Shown: positions 3,495 to 62,495 of the stretch, one piece after another
Layout of the letters: each line of letters begins with the position of its first letter
Position numbering within the stretch: position 1 is the stretch's first letter
Assembly: GCF_006345805.1 (NCBI RefSeq)
Contig: NC_043001.1
Span: forward strand, 22,816,001 to 22,880,000
DNA: 64,000 nucleotides
From: Octopus sinensis
Lineage: Eukaryota
Direction: 5' to 3'
The notes under the pieces: model-generated
What the model was told of the DNA's origin: nothing
Databases searched by the model: none
The model's input: only the letters and a program-made list of their open reading frames with translations
Program-made: the position numbers and the translations under genes

Positions 3495-4764
3495 TCAGGT
3501 CATCCCATAAGTTCTGTCCGATTTTACCTTTTTAAAATTGAATGAAATTTAGAATGTCTCATGGAATTAAATATTATTTTTATGCATTTGTGTACATTTA
3601 AACTAATTAAATATTATTTTACAGAATAATAGAATTTCTTTGATGAAAACGCTTTCTAACATGGAAGTATCCAAAGAACATTTGAGGCACATAATGCTTT
3701 ATGAGTACAAAAAAGGAAACTCTGAAGCCGAGGCGACTCGAAACATACACTCAGTTTATGGGAAACAATGCTTGAATGAAAGAACTTGCAGAAGGTGGTT
3801 TGCAAAATTCAGAAGTGGAGATTTCAGCCTTGAAGATGAAAATCGAACAGAACGTCCAGTTGAGTTTGATGATAAGCTCCTTGAGGCATTACTTCAAGAT
3901 AATCATGCATTATCAGTTGAAGAATTGAATATAATGCTTAGTTCAAATCATACAACTGTTCATTGTCATCTTCAACAACTTGGAAAGGTTCCTAAACTTG
4001 GATAATGAGTGCCTCATGAACTGTCCGAAAGCAACTGCAAATCCCGAATTGACATCTGCTCTTCTCTCCATTCTCGCCAACTCATTTCACCCTTTTTGGA
4101 TAGACTTGTGACTAGTGACAAAAAATGGATCTTCTATAGAAATGTTAAACGTCGTAAACAGTGGCTTGGTAAAAGGAAAAAAGCTCAACCACAACCGAGA
4201 AGGGAACTTCATGGGAAAAAGGTTCTTCTCTCTATCTGGTGGGATTGCAAAGGAGTAAATCACTTTGAATTGTTACCACCTAATGCAACAATCAATGCTC
4301 AAGTCTACTGTCAGCTAACAGAGCCTTTTGAACCAAGCTTTGAAGAAAAAAGATCCGTTTTAGTGAATCGAAAAGGAGTAATGTTTCATCAGGACAATGC
4401 TCGACCCCACACTGCAAAGATCACATCACAGAAGATCGAAGAGCTTGGTTGGGAAAAAATTCCTCATCTACCTTATTCTCCCGATCTTGCTCCTCTAGAC
4501 TACCATTTGTTTTGTAGTTTACAAAATTATTTGGAGGACATAATTTTCGCAAGCCAGGAGGAGCTCGAAACTGACATTTCAGAGTTCTTCGCTTTGAAAG
4601 CAAAAGAGTTTTACATTGATGGGATTAAAAAGCTTGTAAATAAATCGAAGGAAGTCATAGATAATCAGGGAAAGTACATTGATGATTAAATTTCAATTAA
4701 ATATAACATTTGATCACTTGTTTTCTTTATTCAAAATTCGAACAGAACTTATGGGATGACCTGA
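3495..4764 (+). mobile_element. Full-length mariner (DD34D) transposon, 1270 bp
   Basis: TIR tcaggtcatcccataagttctg at 3495 and its reverse complement ending at 4764; TA on both sides; transposase inside. Confidence 0.95.
3661..4689 (+). pseudogene. Mariner transposase, inactivated
   Basis: HTH region MEVSKEHLRH..CRRWFAKFRSGDFSLED; linker KLG-*-*-VPHEL with TAA TGA at 4003-4008; catalytic motifs TSDKKW, HQDNARPH and YSPDLAPLDYHLF; compensated frameshift near 4320-4350. Confidence 0.92.
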
Positions 4765-10600: not shown

Positions 10601-11140
10601 AGCGGCGAGCTGGCAGAAACGTTAGTAGGCCGGGCGAAATGCTTAGTAGTATTTCATCTGTTTTAATGTTCTGAGTTCAAATTCCGCCGAGGTCGACTTT
10701 GCCTTTCATCCTTTCGGGGTCGATTAAATAAGTACCAGTTACGCACTGGGATCGATATAATCGACTTAATACATTTGTTTGTCCTTGTTTGTCCTCTCTG
10801 TGTTTAATCCCTTGTGGTTAGTAAAGAAATAGGTATTTCGTCTGTCGTTACGTTCTGAGTTCAAATTCCGCCGAGGTCGACTTTGCCTTTCATCCTTTCG
10901 GGGTCGATAAATTAAGTATCAGTTACGCACTGGAGTCGATGTAATCGACTTAATCCATTTGTTTGTCCTTGTTTGTCCCCTCTATGTTTAGCCCCTTGTG
11001 GGTAGTAAAGAAATAAGAAACGTTAGCAGGCCGGGCGAAATGCTTAGTAGTATTTCATCTGTTTTAATGTTCTGAGTTCAAATTCCGCCGATTTCGACAT
11101 TTCCTTTAATCCTGTCGGTCCTTGTTCCTAGAGTAGAAAA
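10601..11140 (+). mobile_element. SINE family A, nested trimeric array
   Basis: Junctions aaagaaata|ggtatttc (~10832) and aaagaaata|agaaacgttagc (~11016). Confidence 0.85.
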
Positions 11141-15416: not shown

Positions 15417-15419
<3 letters not shown>

Positions 15420-16137
15420 TGATCGTTGATGATCTTTTTCTAGCATTCTGGCCGGCTACCTAGCAGGCCAGCCCTGCCAATATACACATATATTTGAATT
15501 TTCTCTGACTCCTCAGATTTTTTGAATGCTGGACTACTGGTTTTAAATTGATATTAAAATTAATATTAATTTATCTCCCTCAATTTTTAAATATTTAAAT
15601 AAATACGTTCCCTAGATGTAAGCACTACACTACCCGCAGTGAATTATTCACTGCAGCCCTTCGCTTCAGGATCTCTCAGCGCGCCGGAACCAAGACATTT
15701 GAAATTTTATTCCCGATGTAATCAGTAAGACTAAGCACGTGTCTGTCTTGACACAGAGAGCTGGGGTTAGTCTTGCGTTTGCATCTCGAGGACCGAATGT
15801 ACTGATGAAGTCACGGACACTTGAATTATGCAAGTATTCTTTTGTTAAGACCGAAACCGAGGTATGCATTAAGTCTGTTATTTATATAATTTTTCATATG
15901 TCCTGCCCGCCAAAGTTGGTTCTGGTGTTCGCTGAATTCTTCCTCTAGAGAATTTCCCTTGTAGTTTGATCGTTGATGATCTTTTTCTAGCATTCTGGCC
16001 GGCTACCTAGCAGGCCAGCCCTGCCATATACACATATATTTGAATTTTCTCTGACTCCTCAGATTTTTTGAATGCTGGACTACTGGTTTTAAATTGATAT
16101 TAAAATTAATATTAATTTATCTCCCTCAATTTTTTAA

Positions 16138-16143
<6 letters not shown>
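15417..16143 (+). mobile_element. Non-coding HHR-containing partial-tandem element (retrozyme-like or solo PLE pLTR), period 547 bp
   Basis: ~180-bp direct repeats 15417-15597 and 15964-16143, an internal HHR, and (TA)n on both flanks. Confidence 0.8.
15796..15870 (+). ncRNA. Type I hammerhead ribozyme
   Basis: Stem I aatgta/tgcatt; CTGATGA 15802-15808; stem II (a)gtc...gac(c) with long insertion; GAAA 15853-15856; stem III ccgagg; GUA site, predicted cleavage after 15864. Confidence 0.82.
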
Positions 16144-16168
<25 letters not shown>

Positions 16169-16172
<4 letters not shown>

Positions 16173-16522
16173 GTTATCGCCATACTAATATGGCATTCTT
16201 ATAAAAATAGAAAAAAGCTGTCCGCTTATTAGCTCCATGAGGCCATCGCCTTAAGTTAGCTATTTGATACACAAACTGTATCCATATAACCTTCGAACAA
16301 GGGAGGTCCAGTCGCTCCACACTACTTGACCGGCAGCTACAGAAACGCGTCTGTAGCTGCCGGTCAAGTAGTGTGGAGCGACTGACCTCCCTTGTTCGAA
16401 GGTTATATGGATACAGTTTGTGTATCAATAGCTAACTTAAGGCGATGGCCTCATGGAGCTAATAAGCGGACAGCTTTTTCTTATTTTTATAAGAATGCCA
16501 TATTAGTATGGCGATAACTATT
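16169..16522. repeat. ~354-bp near-perfect palindrome whose apex is a hammerhead half-core (GAAACGCGTC)
   Basis: Arms ~174 bp with about 3 small differences; apex gctacaGAAACGCGTCtgtagc with the motif at 16342-16351; right arm continues as unique sequence to ~16585, then (TA)n. Confidence 0.92.
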
Positions 16523-16585
16523 TTTTCCGGGAACGCTGCCGCTGTTCTCTTTTAGTGAGACTTAGTTATTTTAATATTTCTATTA

Positions 16586-16619
16586 TATAATATATATATA
16601 TATATATATATATCTATAG

Positions 16620-16655
<36 letters not shown>

Positions 16656-16711
16656 TAATTATATACATATATATATACACACACATATATATATATATAT
16701 ACATATGTTTA

Positions 16712-16744
<33 letters not shown>

Positions 16745-17025
16745 TGTATATATATATATTATATATACATATATATATATACATATAAATATAATATATA
16801 ATATATATATATATAGTATATATATACATATACATATATATATATATATCTACATATACATATATATATATATATATACAATAATATATATACATATATA
16901 TATATATCATATATATATATATAATACATATACATATATATATATATACATATTATATATATGTATATTATATATAATACATATACATATATATATAATA
17001 TATATATATGTATATATATATATAC

Positions 17026-17063
<38 letters not shown>

Positions 17064-17115
17064 TATATACCACATATACATATATATATTATAATATATA
17101 TATATTATATATATA
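16586..17115. repeat. Long degenerate (TA)n microsatellite
   Basis: Seen directly. Confidence 0.95.
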
Positions 17116-17230
17116 AAGCAATAAAGATTCAAGTTAATTTAAATGAATTTACTTGAATATGGTACCTAACTTAGATGCACCAAAAAAAGCTATACTGTTT
17201 TAACAATACAGTAATGTGGGGTGATTATAA

Positions 17231-20200
17231 GCGAGAAAGAAGCAACAAGAATGGATAGGTTTTTAGTACAATCGTTTCATACAAGGACAGGCTTTATTAA
17301 AAGTTGCAAAAATTACAGCATATAAACGTGTCCCGTACTCATCAGCTAAAATACATGTGAGTTCTCTAGACATCCTAGTGGTTGAGGCTATACTCATGAA
17401 GTAATGTAGATAATTAAGTAACATAAACAGATTTCCAAAGTTCATTAAAGTTCTTTAAAGATGATGTACAGTCTTATCACAGAATTTTAAAAAGTTTTAA
17501 TAGCATCACAGAGAAGGTGACCTAATCCATAGTGCACATATGAATTTCCAGAGATATGAGGAGGGATTACATACTCACAGACGACAAATTTATCCATTGT
17601 TAATCACAACGAGGTGGGTCTCAATTCCTGCTTATTAGCATTACAGAGAGGGTGAATTATCCTTTGTATAGATGCACAATTTCCAATGTTGTAGATGTAA
17701 ATTTCCAGAGAATGAAGAGGAATTTCATATTCACAGGCGATAAATTTATCAATGGTTGAACACAATGAGGTAGGTATCAATTCTTGTTATATGATTAGGT
17801 ATTTGCCACATTAATCACATTACTGCTATTTACAAGAGGCTGTAGCTATTTAACTTTTAAAGGCTGAAGGGCTTTCTAGAGAGGCAAAGAACAGAAAAGG
17901 GAAGGGAAGAGAAGAAAGAGAGAAAATAAAGGAGGAGGGAGCAAAAAGGGGGGGACTAAAAGAGAAGAGAAAAGGAAAAAGAGAATAAGAAAAGAAGAAA
18001 AAGAAAAAAGAGAAAAGAGAAAGAAATAGGAAAGAAGGGAAAAAAAAGAAAAGAAAAAAAGAGGGTTCTAGTTATACAGAAGAATTAGTAGACGGCAAGT
18101 CTGGTTTTAATTTACAGGCATCTAGGAACTAGAGGAGAATATTATTCTTTGACCAGTAAAAGCTAATTTATTGCTGTTGAAATCAGCTATGAATTTAAAG
18201 AGAATCTAAAGAGATAACACGGTCAGGGGTTTAGGGGTCAGAGGCTAAAATCAAAAGAAAATACATTAGGAAAATCTAAGTATAATCTTATCAAAAGTCA
18301 TTAAAATTTATTTATTTAATTTATTCATTTTATTGTCTTAAGGAGTTGCCGTTATTATTCATACATTGACGGACTACAGGTCAAATCTTAGAAGATCATT
18401 TACAAGGTGTTAGGGAATTGTCCATCATAATGAAGATAATCATATTATCACCGAGGGAGTAGCCTTATTTATTTAATTTTGAAATAGAATTATGGGGCTT
18501 TAGTACTCATTTTATTTTATTAAAGTTATGCTACTTAAATTAGATTAATTAAGAAGAATAATTAAAATTACAAATTAAAATTTAAAATTAAAAATTAAGA
18601 TTTAAAATTATGAGTTTGAAATTAAATAAAGCCTCAATTAAGCAGCGTATAAGTACTATTCATTTCCCTGTTCTCAAAAACTGATGCAGATATAAGGAAA
18701 AAGATAACTGTAGTGTGAGAACTCTTAGTTATCTACTTAAAGCAGTGCTATACTAGTAAAAATCAAGTTATATCTATCTATCTATCTAGTTACGAATATT
18801 CTAATCATTTAAAATATTTAAAGTCTTCAATTTAGCGTGGACACAAACTTGACCTAGTTCGATATGGTTATTCAATAAGTTTCTATGTTTTCTATGCTTT
18901 AGAATTTCATACGTCTCCATGGAGCATAGTTGGCAACCACCGTACTATTTTTATACGGAATTGCTCTCCTAACTATTTCCCAATTAAGATTATAATTATT
19001 ATTATTATTTTTGAGTTCCCAGATTTTGTTTGAAAGTGTGGTGGTACCAGCTTTATGACGTAATTTAAAAGACGAAATGTGATTTCTAACTCTGGCTAGA
19101 AAATTAATTGTACATCCAATGTAAAATATTTGTTATTCCCGTGGATATGGTACATTTATAGATTACATTATTTTCCCCGCATAGACCAGGTGCCGGGCAT
19201 TTTGATTTTATTCTACACTTACACACAGGAGGAACAACTTCAGGTTTTGGATTATTCTTGGGTAGATGTCTTAGGTTCCTATTATTTGATTATCATGAGT
19301 ATAATTGTCCTTATTGTTATTATATTTCTATAGTTGGTGCTGATATATAAAGTATTGCTATTATTTATTGATCCTTCTGTTTCATCATTTAGGTCTAAAG
19401 TCCTACCATGATTTCTTATATTATTGGTAATGTTACTATTATTGTTAGTCTTTTTATCCGACTGCATATTGTTGTTATAGATATCACTGATATTTTCATT
19501 CTCCTTATTTTCTCCATTAGCCTTATTTCTATTATTTCTATTATTAACATTATTACTTCTATTAATATCGGCATTGTTATTATTACTATTAATGTTAATG
19601 TTATTAGTCATTCTGTGGTTACTAATTTCACCTATGTTTTGATAGTTACTATTGCTGTTTTTATTGTTGGTAGTATATTATAATTGCTATTGGTATTCAT
19701 GCTGATATATTATTATTTTTATTTCTATCTTTCCTGGCTAGTTTATGTTGTTATTATTAATCTTAGCTATTAAAGTGGACATATTTGGGAGGGTTGAATA
19801 AGAAATCCTAACTGTTTTCCTAGAAATAATTCTATATATCTATGAGAGATAGGGAAATTTTTTTCCAGAATTACTTTGAATTTGTTCTGTATATCCGATT
19901 GTATCGCACAGTTGAAAGAATATTCAGCCATAATATATCTTTTTTATTAAATTTAGGGTTCGTAGAATTATTACTATTCATCTCACCGGAGTTATTGTAT
20001 TTATTACCATTATTTTTATTTTTATTTGTGTGCATCTTAGGTTTATCTACTTCGATATTATCCGAGTTACCTATGTTCTGGTCAATGCTTCTATTTGAAT
20101 TGTTGGGCCTGTACGTTAGATTAGCGTTTACCGTTAATTTAATTCTACTTTTATTTCGGGCTTGGTCTGTATTGCTGCTTACGTGATTACTGATAACTTC

Positions 20201-20975
20201 TTTATTAGGAATACGTGAGTTCTCCTTATCAACGAATGTAATCTTTTGGTTGTATCCAGCCTTAGTTAACGCCGCATTATAATGCTCAGAATGGGAGTTA
20301 AATATATCCTTATTGGATGATAATTTTGAAATTCTTAATGAAATATTTCTTACTAAAGATTCAATTATATTGGGGGATGATTTGATAATTTATTTACGTA
20401 ATTCGTGACTTCGCCTTCCTTTCTAAATGGGTAATGCAGCTTGGAGTTAAGGTCTAGCGTAATATCTAGGAAGTTAACTATTTTAGTGCCCGGTTCATAC
20501 GTTATACTGAGGTTGAAATCCTTAAAGAACTTATTAATTTTCTTTCTAATCCTTTCTATAACAGGTTTATTATTACTAGGGATAACAAACAGAGCATCAT
20601 CCCTATATAGACCCCCCTGTATTTCTGGGATATCCTTGCTTATGCATTTTAATAGATATGCGCCTACTAGGTTGGTTACCTCAGCCGAATCACTGGAACC
20701 CATTGGTATATCAAAATAATTAGGTGTATCTGCTCTAGTCCATAATTTATCTTCAAATTCTATAAATGTCTTCCTAGCTAGTAGCACAATATTGATTTCT
20801 TCTCTAGATATGAGGGAGCGATTCATGGCAAATATTAGTGATTTGTTGAGTAAGATAGGGGAAATACTAGAGTAATAACTATTAATATCGAACTGAATAA
20901 AGGACAGACTACTAGTATTAGTTACAGAGTTAAACCATTTTAGAACTTCGTCCGTACTTAGCCATAGGTTTAAGG
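17231..20975 (-). mobile_element. Penelope-like element (Neptune-type), 5'-truncated within RT
   Basis: RT motifs IPMGSSDSAEV, GGLYRDDALF, VNFLDITLDL, YVNKLSNHPP; Cys-rich linker C.C..C.C.....CP..G.C; GIY-YIG (VIY...YIG, R..NH, LS..IWELK, CQLC..E); stop at 18805-18807; ~1.5-kb 3' region ending in an HHR. Several frameshifts. Confidence 0.9.
17261..17351 (-). ncRNA. Type I hammerhead ribozyme at the PLE 3' terminus (copy 1)
   Basis: Reverse complement reads ttttag CTGATGA gtacgggaca...tgtccttgtat GAAA cgattg TA ctaaaa. Confidence 0.85.
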
Positions 20976-22652
20976 AAAAAGAGAATAAGAAGAAGAAAAA
21001 GAAAAAAGAGAAAAGAGAAAGAAATAGGGAAAGAAGGGAAAAAAAAGAAAAAGAAAAAAAGAGGGTTCTAGTTATACAGAAGAATTAGTAGACGGCAAGT
21101 CTGGTTTTAATTTACAGGCATCTAGGAACTAGAGGAGAATATTATTCTTTGACCAGTAAAACAGCTAATTTATTGCTGTTGAAATCAGCTATGAATTTAA
21201 AGAGAATCTAAAGAGATAACACGGTCAGTACGCTGCTTAATTGAGGCTTTATTTAATTTCAAACTCATAATTTTAAATCTTAATTTTAAATCTTAATTGT
21301 AATTTTTAATTTTAATTCTTAACTTAATCTAATTTAAGTAGCATAACTTTAATAAAATAAAATGAGTTACTAAAGCCCCATAATTCTATTTCAAAATTAA
21401 ATAAATAAGGCTACTCCCTCGGTGATAATATGATTATCTTCATTATGATGGACAATTCCCTAACACCTTGTAAATGATCTTCTAAGATTTGACCTGTAGT
21501 CCGTCAATGTATGAATAATAACGGCAACTCCTTAAGACAATAAAATGAATAAATTAAATAAATAAATTTTAATGACTTTTTGATAAGATTATACTTAGAT
21601 TTTCCTAATGTATTTTCTTTTGATTTTAGCCTCTGACCCTAAACCCCTGACCGTGTTATCTCTTTAGATTCTCTTTAAATTCATAGCTGATTTCAACAGC
21701 ATAAATTAGCTTTTTTACTGGTCAAAGAATAATATTCTCCTCTAGTTCCTAGATGCCTGTAAATAAAAACCAGACTTGCCGTCTACTAATTCTTCTGTAT
21801 AACTAGAACCCTCTTTTTTTCTTTTTCTTTTTTTTCCCTTCTTTCCCTATTTCTTTCTCTTTTCTCTTTTTTCTTTTTTCTTCTTCTTATTCTCTTTTTC
21901 CTTTTCTCTTCTCTTTTAGTCCCCTCCCCCCCTTTTTGCTCCCTCCTCCTTTATTTTCTCTCTTTTCTTCTCTTTTTCCTTCCTTTTCTGTTCTTTGCCT
22001 CTCTAGAAAGCCCTTCAGCCTTTAAAAGTTAAATAGCTACAGCCTCTTGTAAATAGCAGTAATGTGATTAATGTGGCAAATACCTAATCATATAACAAGA
22101 ATTGATACCTACCTCATTGTGTTCAACCATTGATAAATTTATCGCCTGTGAATATGAAATTCCTCTTCATTTCTCTGGAAATTTAACATCTACAACATTG
22201 GAAATTGTGCATCTATACAAAGGATTAATTCACCCTCTCTGTAATGCTAATAAGCAGGAATTGAGACCACCTCTTTGTGATTAACAATGGATAAATTTGT
22301 CGTCTGTGAGTATGTAATCCCTCCTCATATCTCTGGAAATTCATATGTGCACTATGGATTAGGTCACCTTCTCTGTGATGCTATTAAAACTTTTTTAAAA
22401 TTCTGTGATAAGACTGTACATCATCTTTAAAGAACTTTAGTGAACTTTGGAAATCTGTTTATGTTACTTAATTATCTACATTACTTCATGAGTATAGCCT
22501 CAACCACTAGGATGTCTAGAGAACTCACATGTATTTTAGCTGATGAGTACGGGACACGTTTATATGCTGTAATTTTTGCAACTTTTAATAAAGCCTGTCC
22601 TTGTATGAAACGATTGTACTAAACCTATCCATTCTTGTTGCTTCTTTCTCGC
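20972..22652. mobile_element. Rearranged 5' end of the PLE: 250-bp same-orientation jump segment, then a 1.4-kb inverted copy of the 3' region
   Basis: 20972-21228 matches 17972-18226; 21229-22652 is the reverse complement of 17231-18649. Confidence 0.9.
22534..22623 (+). ncRNA. Type I hammerhead ribozyme in the inverted PLE terminus
   Basis: ttttag CTGATGA(22540-22546) gtacgggaca...tgtccttgtat GAAA cgattg TA ctaaa; predicted cleavage after 22618. Confidence 0.85.
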
Positions 22653-22654
22653 GC

Positions 22655-22744
<90 letters not shown>

Positions 22745-42383: not shown

Positions 42384-43140
42384 CATTATTTTCTTCTGTT
42401 AACAAACAATAAATTTAAAACCACATTTAACCAATGTAGAAAGAATATTTTATGGTCGTGGCGAGTGTAATACTTAAATATTTACTTAATTCAACCAGTT
42501 GGTTGAAACCAATAAATTGGTAAAAGAAAACAGTTTTTTCATCTTTATTGCTGCTTCGTAACAACTAACACTTCCTGCTAGATTAAATTAATTGTTTTTT
42601 TTTTGCTTCTAAATGGACTATTATCAAGTTTAAAATGAAAATCTCAGAATAGATAGTTTTCATGGCATTAAAATTTTTTCGATTTTTTTGAGATCGTATA
42701 TCTGTCTTGGTAGTCTTAATTACAAGCATATTCTTGACAAGATTAATATTTTTTCTCTTTCTTTCAGTGGTGTGGATATTATTAGATTATATAGTAGAAG
42801 TTACGCCTGCCCCATAAAAATGTGATGCGATATTAATGTTTACAGTCAATTTAGGCGTTCATCTCAGAGTGGCGTTAAAGAGAACACCTGGGAAGATAAC
42901 GAGTTGAGAAGAATTGCAGGTAAGGTATGACTTTTGGGGGGAAGAGAAAAATCATTTTCAACATTATCATTACTGACAAAAAGATTTTTAATGATATACG
43001 TTCTCGTTGCTGGAAGTAGGAGATGGGAAACCAACAATTTATTAGTATGCCGCCATACTGCTTGGTTTAACTTACTAGCCGTGGCTCTAGCCAGTAATTT
43101 TTGCCTCATATTTTCGTAACTAAGAGTATTGAGTATATAT

Positions 43141-43560
43141 ATTTCTTTATTGCCCACAAGGGGCTAAACATAGAGGGGACAAACAAGGACAGACAAACGG
43201 ATTAAGTCGATTATATCGACCCCAGTGCATAACTGGTACTTAATTTATCGACCCTGAAAGGATGAAAGGCAAAGTCGACCTTGGCGGAATTTTAACTCAG
43301 AACGGAACGTAACCGCTGACGAAATACTTATTCCTTTACTACCCACAAGGGGCTAAACACAGAGGGGACAAACAAGGACAGACAAACAGATTAAGTCGAT
43401 TAAATCGACCCCAGTGCGTAACTGGTACTTAATTTATCGACCCTGAAATGATGAAAGGCAATGTCGACCTCGGCGGAATTTGAACTCAGAACGGAACGGC
43501 AGACGAAATATTGCTAAGCATTTCGCCCGGCGTGCTAACGTTTCTGCCAGCTCACCGCCT
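43141..43560 (-). mobile_element. SINE family A short-tail dimer
   Basis: Two cores; flanking direct repeat ga(g/a)tattgagtatat. Confidence 0.88.
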
Positions 43561-51885: not shown

Positions 51886-51927
<42 letters not shown>

Positions 51928-54900
51928 CGAGAAAGAAGCAACAAGAATGGATAGGTTTTTTAGTACAATCGTTTCATACAAGGACAGGCTTTATTAAAAG
52001 TTGCAAAAATTGCAGCATATAAACGTGTCCCGTACTCATCAGCTAAAATACATGTGAGTTCTCTAGACATCCTAGTGGTTGAGGCTATACTCATGAAGTG
52101 ATGTAGATAATTAAGTAACATAAACAGATTTCCAAAGTTCATTAAAGTCTAAAGATGATGTACAGTCTTATCACAGAATTTTTAAAAAAGTTTTAATAGC
52201 ATCACAGAGAAGGTGACCTAATCCATAGTGCACATATGAATTTCCAGAGATATGAGGAGGGATTACATACTCACAGACGACAAATTATCCATTGTTAATC
52301 ACAACGAGGTGGGTCTCAATTCCTGCTATTAGCATTACAGAGAGGGTGAATTAATCCTTTGTATAGATGCACAATTTCCAATGGTGTAGATGTAAATTTC
52401 CAGAGAAATGAAGAGGAATTTCATATTCACAGGCGATAAATTTATCAATGGTTGAACACAATGAGGTAGGTATCAATTCTTGTTATATGATTAGGTATTT
52501 GCCACATTAATCACATTACTGCTATTTACAAGAGGCTGTAGCTATTTAACTTTTAAAGGCTGAAGGGCTTTCTAGAGAGTCAAAGAACAGAAAAAGGGGA
52601 AGGGAAGAGAAAGAAAATAGAGAAAATAAAGGAGGAGGGAGCAAAAAGGGGGGGGGACTAAAAAAAGAGAAGAGAAAAGGAAAAGAGAATAAGAAGAAGA
52701 AAAAGAAAAAAGAGAAAAGAGAAAGAAATAGGGAAAGAAGGGAAAAAAAGAAAAAGAAAAAAGAGGGTTCTAGTTATACAGAAGAATTAGTAGACGGCAA
52801 GTCTGGTTTTAATTTACAGGCATCTAGGAACTAGAGGAGAATATTATTCTTTGACCAGTAAAACAGCTAATTTATTGCTGTTGAAATCAGCTATGAATTT
52901 AAAGAGACTCTAAAGAGGTAACACGGTCAGGGGTTTAGGGGTCAGAGGCTAAAATCAAAAGAAAATACATTAGGAAAATCTAAGTATAATCTTATCAAAA
53001 AGTCATTAAATTTATTTATTTAATTTATTCATTTTATTGTCTTAAGGAGTTGCCGTTATTATTCATACATTGACGGATTACAGGTCAAATCTTAGAAGAT
53101 CATTTACAAGGTGTTAGGGAATTGTCTATCATAATGAAGATAATCCTATTATCACCGAGGGAGTAGCCTTATTTATTTAATTTTGAAATAGAATTATGGG
53201 GCTTTAGTAACTCATTTTATTTTATTAAAGTTATGCTACTTAAATTAGATTAAGTTAAGAATTAAAATTAAAAATTACAATTAAGATTTAAAATTATGAG
53301 TTTGAAATTAAATAAAGCCTCAATTAAGCAGTGTATAAGTACTATTCATTTCCCTGTTCTCAAAAAACTGATGCAGATATAAGGAAAAAGATAACTGTAG
53401 TGTGAGAACTCTTAGTTATCTACTTAAAGCAGTGCTATACTAGTAAAAATCAAGTTATATCTATCTATCTATCTAGTTACGAATATTCTAATCATTTAAA
53501 ATATTTTAAAGTCTTCAATTTAGCGTGGACACAAACTTGACCTAGTTCAATATGGTTATTCAATAAGTTTCTATGTTTTCTATGCTTTAGAATTTCATAC
53601 GTCTCCATGGAGCATAGTTGGCAACCAACCCTACTATTTCTATACGGAATTGCTCTCCTAACTATTTCCCAATTAAGGTTATAATTATTATTATTATTTT
53701 TGAGTTCCCAGATTTTGTTTGAAAGTGTGGTGGTACCAGCTTTATGACGTAATTTAAAAGACGAGATGTGATTTCTAACTCTGGCTAGAAAATTATTGTA
53801 CATCCAATGTAAAAATATTTTGTTATTTTCCCCGCATAGACCAGGTGCCGGGCATTTTGATTTTATTCTACACCTACACACAGGAGGAACAACTTCAGGT
53901 TTTGGATTATTCTTGGTAGATGTCTTAGGTTCCTATTATTTTGATTATCATGAGTATAATTGTCCTTAGTTATTAATATTTCTATAGTTGGTGCTGATCT
54001 CTAAAGTATTGCTATTATTTATTGATCCTTCTTTTCATCATCATTAGGTCTAAAGTCCTACCATGATTTCTTATATTATTGGTAATGTTACTATTATTGT
54101 TAGTCTTTTTATCCGACTGTATATTGTTGTTATAGATATCACTGATATTTTCCTTCTCCTTATTTTCTCCATTAGCCTTATTTCTATTATTTCTATTATT
54201 AACATTATTACTTCTATTAATATCGGCATTGTTATTATTACTATTAATGTTAATGTTATTAGTCATTCTGTGGTTACTAATTTCACCTATGTTTTGATAG
54301 TTACTATTGTTGTTTTTATTGTTGGTAGTATTATTATAATTGCTATTGGTATTCATGCTGATATTATTATTTTTATTTCTATCTTTCCTGGCTAGTTTAA
54401 TGTTGTTATATTAATCTTAGCTATTAAAGTGGACATATTTGGGAGGGTTGAATAAGAAATCCTAACTGTTTTCCTAGAAATAATTCTATGATATCTATGA
54501 GAGATAGGGAAATTTTTTTCCAGAATTACTTTGAATTTGTTCTGTATATCCGATTGTATCGCACAGTTGAAAGGAATATTCAGCCATAATATATCTTTTT
54601 TATTAAATTTAGGGTTCGTAGAATTATTACTATTCATCTCACCGGAGTTATTGTATTTATTACCATTATTTTAATTTTTATTTGTGTGCATCTTAGGTTT
54701 ATCTACTTCGATATTATCCGAGTTACTTATGTTCTGATCAATGCTTCTATTTGAATTGTTGGGCTGTACGTTAGATTAGCGTTTACCGTTAATTTAATTC
54801 TACTTTTATTTCGGGCTTGGTCTGTATTGCTGCTTACGTGATTACTGATAACTTCTTTATTAGGAATACGTGAGTTCTCCTTATCAACGAATGTAATCTT

Positions 54901-55867
54901 TTGTTGTATCCAGCCTTAGTTAACGCCGCATTATAATGCTCAGAATGGGAGTTAAATATATCCTTATTGGATGATAATTTTGAAATTCTTAATGAAATAT
55001 TTCTTCCTAAAGATTCAATTATATTTGGGGGATGATTTGATAATTTATTTACGTAATTCGTGATTTCGCCTTCCTTTCTAAATGGGTAATGCAGCTTGGA
55101 GTTAAGGTCTAGCGTAATATCTAGGAAGTTATATTTTAGTGCCCGGTTCATACGTTATACTGAGGTTGAAATCCTTAAAGAACTTATTAATTTTCTTTCT
55201 AATCCTTTCTATAACAGATTTATTATTACTAGGGATAACAAACAGAGCATCATCCCTATATAGCCCCCCCCTGTATTTCTGGGATTCCTTGCTTATGCAT
55301 TTTAATAGATATGCGCCTACTAGGTTGTTTACCTCAGCCGAATCACTGGAACCCATAGGTATATCAAAATAATTAGGTGTATCTGCTCTAGTCCATAATT
55401 TATCTTCTTCAAATTCTATAAATGTCTTCCTACTAGTAGCACAATATTGATTTCTTCTCTAGATATGAGGGAGCGATTCATGGCAAATATTAGTGATTTG
55501 TTGAGTAAGATAGGGGAAATACTAGAGTAATAACTATTAATATCGAACTGAATAAAGGACAGACTACTAGTATTAGTTAGAGAGTTAAACCATTTTAGAA
55601 CTTCTTCCGTACTTAGCCATAGGTTTAAGGGGAGAAGAGGGGTTATTTGGGGTAGAACAGTATCCAGGATAGATTTACTAAGTCGGCCAATGTCCGACTT
55701 AGTTGGACAGATCAGCCTTATCGAAGGGTTTTCCAGGAAATTCTTTTTGTGGTCTTTAATTTGATCCTGGGCTCACACGGTTTAATGGCTCTGTTCTATC
55801 CGTTAAATTTAGTTTCTCCATGATCTCTTTCATTTCCAGTTTACTTTTTTCAAATTGTTCTTAGTCG
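51928..55867 (-). mobile_element. Second copy of the Neptune-type PLE, 5'-truncated in RT, (TA)n on both sides
   Basis: Near-identical to 17231-20975 and extends ~240 bp further 5'; same RT and GIY-YIG motifs; stop at 53492. Confidence 0.9.
51958..52048 (-). ncRNA. Type I hammerhead ribozyme at the PLE 3' terminus (copy 2)
   Basis: Same motif as 17261-17351. Confidence 0.85.
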
Positions 55868-59859: not shown

Positions 59860-61453
59860 GCATCAAAAGGTCCCCAGACTAATTCTGTAACGCGCCAACG
59901 GTTGCGTGCGCAGTGAGAACTAGCAATGACCTTCATGAGGCAGTGACATCACTGTGTTTACTTTGAAAATTGTGAAATTTGTGTTTTTATGCTCACGTGT
60001 ATGCTGTAGTCTGCAATTTTGTCATGTCAGAGACATTGAGAATGCTTCGGCAAGCCTACGGCGATTGGGTCGTACGCGATGTTTCGAGTGGCACGAGTGC
60101 TTCAAAAGTGGAAGAACGTCCCTGGAAGACAACGAGAGATCTTGAAGAACTGCCACTAGTGTCACCCCAGAAATATGGAGAAATGCGGCGAGCTACAGAA
60201 TCGTTAGCACGCCGGGCGAAATGCTTAGCAGTATTTCGTCTGTCGCTACGTTCTGAGTTCAAATTCCGCCGAGGTCGACTTTGCCTTTCATCTTTTCGGG
60301 GTCGATTAAATAAGAACCAGTCACACACTGGAGTCGATATAATCAACTTAATCCGTTTGTCTGTCCTTGTTTGTCCCTCTATGTTTAGCCCCTTGTGGGT
60401 ACTAAAGAAATAGGTATTTTGTCAGCCGTTGCGTTCTAAGTTCAAATTCTGCCGAGGTTGACTTTGCCTTTCATCCTTTCGGGGTCGATAAATAAGTACC
60501 AGTTACGCACTGGTGTCGATGTAATTGACTTAATCCCTTTGTCTGTTCCTGTTTGTCCATTCTATGTTCAGTCCCTTGTGGGCAATAAAGAAATAGGAAA
60601 TGTGGAGAAAATGCATCAGCTTGTGTATGAGGATCGTCGGGGACAATCAACAACAATGCTGATGTTTTTGTCTGTCGTTATGGATCCGTACAGGCAATCC
60701 TAACGCCTGAATTGAACATGCGGCATGTCTCTGTCAAGTTTGTCTCCTGCCTGCTGACCACAGAGCAGAAAACACATAGCGTGATATCTGTCAAGATCTC
60801 CGCCAGTGTGCCATTTATGATCCATCATTCATGTGACGAGAGTTGGGCCTACGAGTACTACCCTGAGACGAAGCAGCAGTCGTCACAATGGAAAGGACCT
60901 TCATCTCCGCGACCGAAGAAGGTACGGCAGAGCCGCAGCTCGATCAGGAGCATGGTCATTGTTTCTTTCGACATCCACGGTATTGGGTATCGAGATTTCG
61001 TCCCCCAGGGCCAGACCGTTAATTGGGAGTTCTACTGCAACACGCTGAAGTGTTTGAGGGAGGACATTCGGTGAAAGCGACCGGATCTGTGGAGCACGAA
61101 GAATTGGATCCATCACGATGATAATGCACCATGTCACCGGGCTCCCCTCACTCGTAAGTTTCTCACCCATAATAACATGGTGTCGCTTCCGCACCCACTC
61201 TGTTCGCTAGATTTAGAACCTGCGGACTTCGATCTCTTCCCCAAGATAAAAATGCAGCTCGGAGGTCGTCGTTTTAACACCGTTGTCGAGATCCGAGCAA
61301 ATCGTAGAAGGACGGATTCCAAAAGTGGTAGGAACGCTGGGACAGGTGTATTGCTGCGCAAGATGACTATTTCGAAGGATATGATGTTGAAACTTAGGTA
61401 AATAAGTTAATTTTTTTTATTAAACATAACTTGTGCGGAAACTTTTTGATACC
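59860..61453 (+). mobile_element. Decayed mariner (DD34D) interrupted by a SINE A dimer
   Basis: FEWHECFKSGRTSLEDNERS, VSVKFV..LLTTEQK, DESWAYEYYPETKQQS, HHDDNAPCH, HPLCSLDLEPADFDLFPK; degenerate TIRs catcaaaagg.. / ..actttttgatac. Confidence 0.85.
60186..60595 (+). mobile_element. SINE A short-tail dimer inserted in the mariner
   Basis: Approximate TSD gaaatatggagaaatg / gaaatgtggagaaaatg; internal junction aaagaaata|ggtatttt. Confidence 0.88.
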
Positions 61454-61715: not shown

Positions 61716-62495
61716 GGCGAGCTGGCAGAAACGTTAGCACGCTGGGCGAAATGCTTAGCGGTATTTCGTCTGCTGTCACGTTCTGAGTTCACATTCCGCC
61801 GAGGTCGACTTTGCTTTTCATCCTTTCGGGGTCAATAAATTAAGTACCAGTTACGCACTGGGGTCGATGTAATCGACTTAATACCTATGTTTGTCCTTGT
61901 TTGTCCCCTCTGTGTTTAGCCCCTTGTGGCTAATAAAGAAATAGGTATTTCGTCTGCTGTCACGTTCTGAGTTCAAATTCCGCCGAGGTCGACTTTGCCT
62001 TTCATCCTTTCGGGGTCGATAAATTAAGTACCAGTTACGCACTGGGGTCGATGTAATCGACTTAATACCTATGTTTGTCCTTGTTTGTCCCCTCTGTGTT
62101 TAGCCCCTTGTGGCTAATAAAGAAATAGGTATTTCGTCTGCTGTCACGTTCTGAGTTCAAATTCCGCCGAGGTCGACTTTGCCTTTCATCCTTTCGGGGT
62201 CGATAAATTAAGTACCAGTTACGCACTGGGGTCGATGTAATCGACTTAATACCTATGTCTGTCCTTGTTTGTCCCCTCTGTGTTTAGCCCCTTGTGGGTA
62301 ATAAAGAAATAGGTATTTCGTCTGCTGTCACGTTCTGAGTTCAAATTCCGCCGAGGTCGACTTTGCCTTTCATCCTTTCGGGGTCGATAAATTAAGTACC
62401 AGTTACGCACTGGGGTCGATGTAATCGACTTAATACCTATGTCTGTCCTTGTTTGTCTCCTCTATGTTTAGCCCCTTGTGGGCAATAAAGAAATA
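61716..62495 (+). repeat. SINE A head followed by 4 tandem 184-bp units
   Basis: Units start at 61760, 61944, 62128 and 62312 (ggtatttcgtctgctgtcacg) and end in aaagaaata. Confidence 0.95.

What the first reader, a model, noticed from the sequence alone, without database searches (positions are those of the whole stretch)
16169..16585. 350-bp foldback that turns exactly on a hammerhead core
Seen: the apex of a near-perfect palindrome is gctaca-GAAACGCGTC-tgtagc. That is the GAAA / palindromic stem III / GUC half of a PLE-type HHR, with the CUGANGA half replaced by the inverted arm. Only the right arm continues into unique sequence and then (TA)n. Inference: a cDNA stalled inside the ribozyme, snapped back via GA/TC pairing, and was extended into a hairpin before integration. 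This would link HHR structure to PLE-type 5' inversions. If transcribed, it yields ~170 bp of dsRNA (potential siRNA or ADAR substrate).
Basis: partly seen in the sequence, partly recalled or inferred. Interest (0 to 1): 0.75.

Follow-up and report, generated by a model that had tools for sequence, protein, structure and literature searches.

The report
Two-armed retrozyme insertion, Penelope-style
This DNA hairpin is two cut-short, back-to-back copies of a small protein-free jumping repeat that carries a predicted self-cutting RNA motif; its many sister insertions show that the turn at the ribozyme is rare and largely chance, and they suggest that a borrowed Penelope-type enzyme likely copies one RNA from both ends of a DNA break.

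Summary
The foldback is in the assembly as described. It is one insertion of a 362-nt, ORF-less, tandem hammerhead repeat (a non-LTR retrozyme; 1301 exact ends genome-wide). Parent copies have a full type I hammerhead, but with the known U3-A8 core (UUGANAA), not CUGANGA. Most copies sampled are head-to-head pairs in (TA)n. One arm ends near m175 and the other at m238: 0 of 42 pairs are 238/238 and 2 of 148 are 175/175. This is the known Penelope 'inverted copy plus tail' layout. The arms share alleles (380 of 381 sites), yet 80 of 156 insertions cannot be one strand folded back, so snap-back is not the general mechanism. Two separately primed cDNAs joined by microhomology fit better. Only 3 hairpins turn at the hammerhead genome-wide (about 1 expected). 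Junctions are about 1.5 times enriched around the ribozyme, which is weak evidence, and they are depleted in the core interior. No listed contig bridges the apex, and transcription was not tested. This scan has already reported the same layout for other retrozyme families in this and other genomes.

The parts
16137..16168 (.). (TA)n target tract, left flank
16167..16343 (-). short arm: 5'-truncated retrozyme copy, unit positions m361 to m175 (m1 = first base after the predicted cleavage site). Its 5' end is at or within 2 nt of that site; its 3' end is the family's fixed site near m175
16342..16586 (+). long arm: 5'-truncated copy, m353 to m238; its 3' end is the family's other fixed site
16342..16351 (+). 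3' half of the hammerhead core (GAAA, palindromic stem III, GUC). 16342-16343 is the 2-nt microhomology shared by both arms. The UUGANAA half and stem II are missing, so neither arm holds a whole ribozyme
16352..16372 (+). 3' strand of ribozyme stem I and its extension (m1-m21)
16523..16586 (+). 63-nt 'tail': the part of the unit between the two fixed end sites (m175-m238)
16584..17115 (.). (TA)n target tract, right flank

Best explanation
The hairpin is one insertion of a 362-nt, protein-free, hammerhead-bearing tandem repeat (a non-LTR retrozyme), made of two 5'-truncated copies joined head to head in a (TA)n tract, likely produced when a borrowed Penelope-type enzyme primed two cDNAs from the two ends of a DNA cut. 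SHOWN: the unit, the hammerhead anatomy with a U3-A8 core, the (TA)n target, two fixed 3' ends (about m175 and m238) used one per arm, variable 5' ends joined by microhomology, and shared alleles between arms. INFERRED: (1) the RNA self-cleaves and circularises like other retrozymes; (2) a Penelope RT/GIY-YIG protein, probably a dimer, cuts both strands of (TA)n; (3) each 3' end primes at a different site 63 nt apart on the same RNA, or on RNAs from the same donor; (4) each RT runs from tens of bases to several laps and stops; (5) the two cDNA ends anneal through 2-4 nt and are filled in. The window is the uncommon case where both stops fall within 8 nt of each other, which gives a clean palindrome. 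That this spot lies in the ribozyme is mostly chance, perhaps helped by a modest tendency to stop near stem I and the cleavage site.
For: Tandem arrays with about 361-nt spacing; longest ATG-initiated ORF 38 aa. Hammerhead fold z -3.6, monomer fold z -6.8. The core varies only at position 7 (TTGAAAA 178, TTGACAA 24, TTGATAA 17, TTGAGAA 3; the search pattern fixed the other core bases apart from positions 3 and 8); stem III stays palindromic as ACGCGT or ACATGT. One stem II pair changes on both sides (GC 12, AU 10 of 24 rows), and 96.5% of cells pair. Partner arms: m175-anchored, 82 of 94 inverted, with 75 partners ending at m238, 2 at m175 and 5 complex; m238-anchored, 42 of 64 inverted, with 37 partners near m175, 0 at m238 and 5 complex; m172-anchored, 66 of 82 inverted, with 59 partners at m238, 0 near m175 and 7 complex. 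The same pairing holds in subfamilies 81-87% identical to the reference (47 of 52). Microhomology of 2 nt or more in 52 of 67 flush junctions against 16.5% by chance. Arms agree at 380 of 381 polymorphic site pairs against 256.5 expected; 15 rare variants are in both arms and 81 in one arm only. Snap-back is geometrically impossible in 80 of 156; 166 of 312 arms run through the cleavage site; arm lengths correlate, rho 0.29. A purified PLE protein cuts and extends both strands and starts at two internal sites that bound the tail (PMC11167929). An inverted truncated copy, a tail and (TA)n bias are PLE hallmarks (Craig 2021). A broken PLE-like element beside this hairpin has the same two-armed layout.
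Against: No autonomous partner was identified: four PLE-like neighbours and the window's PLE share no real similarity with the unit. The window's own geometry (long arm 245, short arm 177, loop 6) also fits snap-back. Exactly symmetric junctions are in slight excess (8 vs 2.9, P 0.01). Three 175/175 hairpins (L063, L070, L129) look like true foldbacks. Allele sharing cannot separate one RNA molecule from two RNAs of one donor locus. In vitro, the anole PLE showed no difference in start site between strands and no homology to the target; here the pairing is strict and the ends carry a short TA homology. Cleavage, circular RNA and expression were not tested.
Confidence: 0.78

Rival explanations
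1. At this locus a single cDNA stalled in the GAAA of the ribozyme, snapped back through GA/TC and copied itself. This is the first reader's model; self-priming was proposed for PLE palindromes in PMC3846280.
For: The window's arms are nested, with a 6-nt loop and no substitution between them. Three 175/175 hairpins exist, two of them at the ribozyme (L063, L129). Exact-symmetric junctions are 8 vs 2.9 expected. Arkhipova 2013 reads such palindromes as self-priming (passages).
Against: A self-copy should run to the same end as its template, but the short arm stops at m175, the family's second fixed site. 80 of 156 insertions are not nested, and near-symmetric junctions (within 10 nt) are 13 vs 11.0 expected. 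The core interior, where the long arm stops, is depleted (10 vs 18.7).
Confidence: 0.13
2. The ribozyme sets the turning point: a cleaved or nicked RNA ends at m1, both RTs stop at or just across the nick, and the hairpin forms there. This is compatible with the best explanation as an added bias.
For: The short arm's 5' end is compatible with exactly m1. Arm ends at m358-m3: 15 vs 6.2 pooled; in the ribozyme domain m308-m21: 84 vs 56.7; compatible with exact m1: 6 vs 2.4. The pre-fixed window m321-340 replicated (7 vs 3.0).
Against: The cleavage-site excess is absent in the discovery set (3 vs 3.4) and comes mostly from one set (9 vs 1.3). Counts are overdispersed 4.1-fold; 3-7% of all window positions score as high. 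Hot spots of like strength lie outside the ribozyme (m47-54, m201-208). 166 of 312 arms pass the site. Hammerhead mutants did not change PLE insertion in vitro.
Confidence: 0.3
3. The hairpin is a long-read or assembly foldback chimera.
For: The arms differ only by single-base indels of the kind long reads make.
Against: The inversion is confined to the element and the flanks differ on the two sides. Each arm ends at a family-specific site in its own (TA)n tract. 156 simple insertions share the layout with different junctions, and two other hammerhead-apex hairpins have different loops.
Confidence: 0.04
4. Arms arose separately and were later made alike by gene conversion, or the element is a foldback DNA transposon (MITE-like).
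For: Inverted arms with shared alleles.
Against: 81 rare variants stay in one arm only. The centres vary freely, one end carries a tail, and arms hold tandem units with a ribozyme. 34 of 158 sampled ends have no inverted partner.
Confidence: 0.03

Closest known systems
Metazoan non-LTR retrozymes (PMC7229834, passages seen; bioRxiv 10.64898/2026.07.22.740005, parts 1-3 of 5 read, through the discussion)
   Same: Non-coding tandem units of 170-400 nt, each with a type I hammerhead with a short palindromic stem III, highly self-paired, dispersed; PLEs proposed as mobilisers.
   Different: U3-A8 core. Head-to-head two-armed insertions with paired fixed ends are not described in what I read ('inverted' occurs 0 times in PMC7229834; once in the preprint, place not seen). 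Circular RNA and cleavage were not tested here.
EN+ Penelope-like element insertions (Craig 2021, 10.1101/2021.04.23.441226, passages; Arkhipova 2013, PMC3846280, passages)
   Same: Partial tandems, an inverted 5'-truncated copy head to head, a tail on one end only, (TA)n target bias, palindromes and microhomology at junctions.
   Different: No ORF; the tail is 63 nt rather than 30-40; both arms may hold several units. Half of the insertions exclude the self-priming model proposed in 2013.
Anole Poseidon PLE in vitro (Frangieh 2024, PMC11167929, parts 1-2 of 4 read, main text)
   Same: Both strands cut and extended; two internal start sites bounding the tail; AT-rich target; predicted dimer.
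   Different: There the start sites did not differ between strands and were not homologous to the target. Here each insertion uses one of each site, and the ends carry a short TA homology.
U3-A8 hammerhead variant of Schistosoma PLEs (Cervera and De la Pena 2014, PMC4209133, part 1 of 4 read)
   Same: Same core covariation; that paper also notes pairs of hammerheads 100-700 bp apart on opposite strands.
   Different: Here the motif has canonical helix sizes (6 bp stem I, 4 bp stem II) and lies in a tandem non-coding unit.
LINE-1 twin priming (recalled, no call)
   Same: Two primers from one break on one RNA, with an inverted junction joined by microhomology.
   Different: L1 arms cover non-overlapping parts of the RNA. 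Here they overlap and start at two fixed sites.

Membership tests
type I hammerhead ribozyme | core C3-U-G-A-N7-G8-A9 ... GAAA ... UH, or a covariant | tested here: met
   UUGANAA (U3-A8) with free N7, GAAA and GUC in parents; U3-A8 is in print. Literal CUGANGA: 0 of 350.
type I hammerhead ribozyme | stems I, II and III able to pair, with supporting variation | tested here: met
   96.5% paired, one pair changed on both sides, stem I pair GU/AU/GC; 24 of 63 variants picked by hand; relatedness not controlled
type I hammerhead ribozyme | self-cleavage | not testable with these tools
   needs in vitro transcription; Rfam gathering scan of the window gave 0 matches
type I hammerhead ribozyme (this window's copy) | complete core in cis | tested here: not met
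   both arms lack the 5' core half and stem II
non-LTR retrozyme | tandem units of 170-400 nt, one type I hammerhead each | tested here: met
non-LTR retrozyme | no coding capacity | tested here: met
   longest stop-free run 55 aa, longest ATG ORF 38 aa
non-LTR retrozyme | highly self-paired monomer | tested here: met
   z -6.8; 64% paired as a circle
non-LTR retrozyme | dispersed, mobile copies | tested here: met
   1301, 321 and 150 exact end matches on many contigs
non-LTR retrozyme | expressed as circular RNA | not tested
   no raw RNA reads were laid
PLE-type insertion footprint | inverted 5'-truncated copy head to head | tested here: met
PLE-type insertion footprint | tail on one end only | tested here: met
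   63 nt; 0 of 42 pairs 238/238, 2 of 148 pairs 175/175
PLE-type insertion footprint | AT-rich or microsatellite target | tested here: met
   anchored ends are in (TA)n by design; partner ends, not selected, also run into (TA)n in most printed flanks
autonomous Penelope-like element | RT plus GIY-YIG ORF | tested here: not met
   no ORF in the unit
non-autonomous derivative of a named PLE | homology to a PLE pseudo-LTR | tested here: inconclusive
   no similarity to five PLE-like neighbours; no genome-wide partner search was made

The most novel reading that the evidence does not exclude
Penelope-type inverted ends are built by an asymmetric two-primer reaction on a single RNA. A dimeric PLE protein holds one retrozyme circle, gives each end of the DNA break a different start site 63 nt apart, and the two RTs follow each other round the circle. 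They pause more often at the ribozyme's stem I and cleavage nick, and then join head to head. This would replace the self-priming model for PLE palindromes and give genomic evidence that PLEs move retrozymes.
Probability: 0.4. Interest if true: 0.7.

Novelty: new member of a known kind. Interest (0 to 1): 0.45.

Why it matters
The single hairpin is ordinary for its family and cannot self-cleave. The family is useful. How PLEs form tandem and inverted ends is called unresolved in Craig 2021, and who mobilises animal retrozymes rests on co-occurrence and phylogeny. Several hundred young insertions of a 362-nt RNA, with two strictly paired start sites, shared alleles and countable junctions, give sharp predictions for the existing in vitro PLE system. 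They already count against self-priming as the general route. Searches with a CUGANGA descriptor would miss this family.

Tried and rejected
Rfam gathering scan of the window: 0 matches. Literal CTGANGA upstream in parents: absent. A post hoc depletion at m341-362 in the discovery set (1 vs 9.4) did not replicate (6 vs 3.6); the post hoc m1-20 excess gave 5 vs 2.3, P 0.09. Run search: no RNA holder listed; this says nothing on expression. Contigs of six coded runs laid in two calls hold the family and read the native upstream core at 16342. No listed piece bridges the apex, but the lists were cut and contigs drop rare forms, so this is no evidence either way. Partner PLE: blastn of a natural dimer against five PLE-like neighbours and the 547-nt family gave only 23-nt AT-rich matches. 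PDB search of the neighbouring RT piece: nothing significant. Look-ups of earlier notes by sequence, by near place and by one word set were empty. MITE, gene conversion and chimera were considered under rivals. Rows left out before counts: duplicates judged by equal junction and length (L040, L094, L106, L121, L150, L225, L251, L259); loci present in two samples (L153, L167, L186, L188, L189, L202-206, L208, L210, L211); the window; L062 and L063; the 30 loci (biased to full-length arms); single-armed and multiply inverted loci; junction gaps over 30 nt (over 12 nt in divergent subfamilies). Loci under 94% identity were redone against their own subfamilies, and 39 were kept. Supplements of the papers were not read; those of PMC7229834 (Fig. 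S9) and of the 2026 preprint could bear on whether inverted retrozyme insertions are already described.

Full report
1. Observation. The foldback is in the assembly. Arms 16169-16343 and 16350-16522 pair over about 175 bp around a 6-nt loop. GAAACGCGTC lies at 16342-16351. Both ends run into (TA)n. The 63 nt beyond the right arm are the continuation of the repeat unit, not unique DNA.

2. The parent. A search of the own genome with 16342-16585 gave 641 first-look candidates, 40 scored, at 97-99% identity, many in tandem at about 361-nt spacing. I numbered a natural unit (L002:1149-1510, 362 nt) from the base after GUC (m1). It has no ORF over 38 aa from ATG and folds with z -6.8. Upstream of the GAAA, none of the 29 other loci reads CTGANGA. 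They show a 6-bp stem I, UUGAAAA, a 4-bp stem II, GAAA, a palindromic stem III and GUC. This is a type I hammerhead with the U3-A8 core pair, reported for Schistosoma PLEs (PMC4209133, part 1 read). Among 350 instances in the fetched loci, the core varied at position 7 only; the pattern allowed C3 and G8 but fixed the other core bases. Stem III switched between two palindromes. In 24 of 63 variants picked by hand, 96.5% of stem cells paired and one stem II pair changed on both sides. Activity was not tested. The window's two arms both lack the 5' half of the core.

3. Insertion layout. Exact patterns for element ends joined to (TA)n gave 321 (m175), 150 (m172) and 1301 (m238) matches, with 0 for the reversed controls. 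Only the first 100 of each were listed. I fetched 98 m175 places besides the window, the first 70 m238 places (contig C1 only) and the first 90 m172 places. After dropping duplicates: of 94 m175-anchored loci, 82 had an inverted partner, which ended at m238 in 75, at m175 in 2 and was complex in 5. Of 64 m238-anchored loci, 42 had a partner, which ended near m175 in 37, at m238 in 0 and was complex in 5. Of 82 m172-anchored loci, 66 had a partner, with 59 at m238, 0 near m175 and 7 complex. Several subfamilies 81-87% identical to the reference keep the pairing (47 of 52). So an insertion normally has one arm from each of two sites 63 nt apart, with the 5' ends facing each other. This is the PLE layout of an inverted truncated copy, a one-sided tail and (TA)n bias (Craig 2021, passages).

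4. How the arms are joined. In 84 simple events of the window's subfamily, 52 of 67 flush junctions had 2 nt or more of microhomology against 16.5% by chance. The window's GA/TC is typical. The arms of one insertion agreed at 380 of 381 polymorphic site pairs (256.5 expected if drawn independently). Fifteen rare variants were in both arms and 81 in one arm only. Both arms therefore come from one template or one donor, and they have not been homogenised since.

5. Snap-back test. If one strand folds back and copies itself, one arm must be nested in the other. With 8 nt of tolerance this fails in 41 of 84 and in 80 of 156 pooled events. Junctions symmetric within 10 nt were 13 against 11.0 expected; within 2 nt, 8 against 2.9 (P 0.01). 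Three 175/175 hairpins (L063, L070, L129) look like true foldbacks. Self-priming, proposed for PLE palindromes in PMC3846280 (passages), may thus occur as a minority route but is not the rule. The window is nested and cannot be decided alone. Its short arm ends at the usual second site, which favours separate priming.

6. Does the ribozyme set the turn? A genome-wide exact pattern found 3 hairpins with the apex in the 3' half of the hammerhead, the window included. About 1.0 is expected from a rough estimate of 522 simple insertions, before losses to mismatches (P 0.09 for 3; 0.28 for the 2 others). In the discovery set the core was not enriched (12 of 168 arm ends vs 17.4). I fixed three post hoc windows in the notebook before an independent set: m321-340 replicated (7 vs 3.0), m1-20 was weak (5 vs 2.3), and the depletion of m341-362 failed (6 vs 3.6). 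Pooled over 312 arm ends: ribozyme domain 84 vs 56.7; cleavage site m358-m3 15 vs 6.2 (3 vs 3.4, 9 vs 1.3 and 3 vs 1.4 in the three sets); core interior 10 vs 18.7. Hot spots lie at m7-14 and m322-329, but also at m47-54 and m201-208, and 166 arms pass the cleavage site. Counts are overdispersed 4.1-fold, and 3-7% of all window positions score as high as the ribozyme windows. A modest stopping bias at stem I and the cleavage site is possible but not established.

7. Mechanism. A purified anole PLE protein cuts and extends both strands of AT-rich DNA and starts at two internal sites that bound the tail. It is predicted to be a dimer and does not need hammerhead cleavage (PMC11167929, main text). 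Applied here, as inference: both ends of a cut (TA)n prime on the retrozyme RNA, one at m238 and one near m175; each RT runs a variable distance, often past the cleavage site, which fits a circle or a multimer; and the cDNA ends anneal by microhomology. The strict one-of-each pairing goes beyond the in vitro report, which saw no strand difference. No partner PLE was identified. A broken PLE-like element beside the hairpin has the same two-armed layout with unequal ends (Pfam matches below cut-off).

8. Artefact. The flanks differ, each arm ends at a family site, and the layout recurs with many different junctions, so a chimera is unlikely. Independent sequence confirmation of the apex was not obtained.

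9. Standing. This is a new member of the non-LTR retrozymes (PMC7229834, passages; 2026 preprint, parts 1-3) with a known core variant and a known PLE footprint. Paper searches showed no description of paired fixed ends in retrozyme insertions; subscription papers and supplements were not seen. Earlier notes of this scan report the same layout for other retrozyme families in this and other genomes; I reached my reading before opening them, and they are not independent support. They call the host an octopus; I did not test that label. Interest 0.45: the turn at the hammerhead is mostly coincidence, but the family makes the open question of PLE inverted ends testable.

Noticed in passing
window 15417-16151: 1.35 units of a second, 547-nt hammerhead repeat family (CTGATGA core at 15802), one-armed, flanked by (TA)n and directly beside the hairpin; 1182 first-look candidates, tandem and head-to-head copies elsewhere.
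   Followed up: partly
window 17116-22655 and 51920-55800: Broken PLE-like element (RT piece, Pfam RVT_1 E 0.001; GIY-YIG-like piece E 0.04; Asn-rich insert) with a minimal hammerhead-like motif near its 3' end (17345 -, 22540 +, 52042 -). The first copy is head to head with unequal ends about 115 nt apart, both in (TA)n.
   Followed up: partly
L122, L137, L197, L255 (unit position m301): The 3' end of the same APE-RT-zf-RVT LINE abuts the retrozyme at the same position, just upstream of the ribozyme stem, in 4 loci; this suggests a site-specific LINE that targets the retrozyme.
   Followed up: partly
L084, L085, L101: The same junction (m96 with m14, 2-nt microhomology) recurs with different arm lengths, so in separate events.
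   Followed up: no
L129, L041, L083, L266: Junction fillers of 18-24 nt made of short templated repeats of the adjacent arm ends, as in repair synthesis.
   Followed up: no
L053, L066, L039/L040, L258/L259: Whole two-armed insertions repeated in tandem; local duplication or an assembly duplication.
   Followed up: no
L078, L102, L173, L176, L181: Insertions with an extra internal template jump within one arm.
   Followed up: no
window 10649-11015, 60231-60597, 61760-62495, 43140-43498: Tandem copies of a roughly 184-189-nt SINE-like repeat.
   Followed up: no
window 3607-4686: Broken ORF that looks like a mariner-type transposase (by eye).
   Followed up: no
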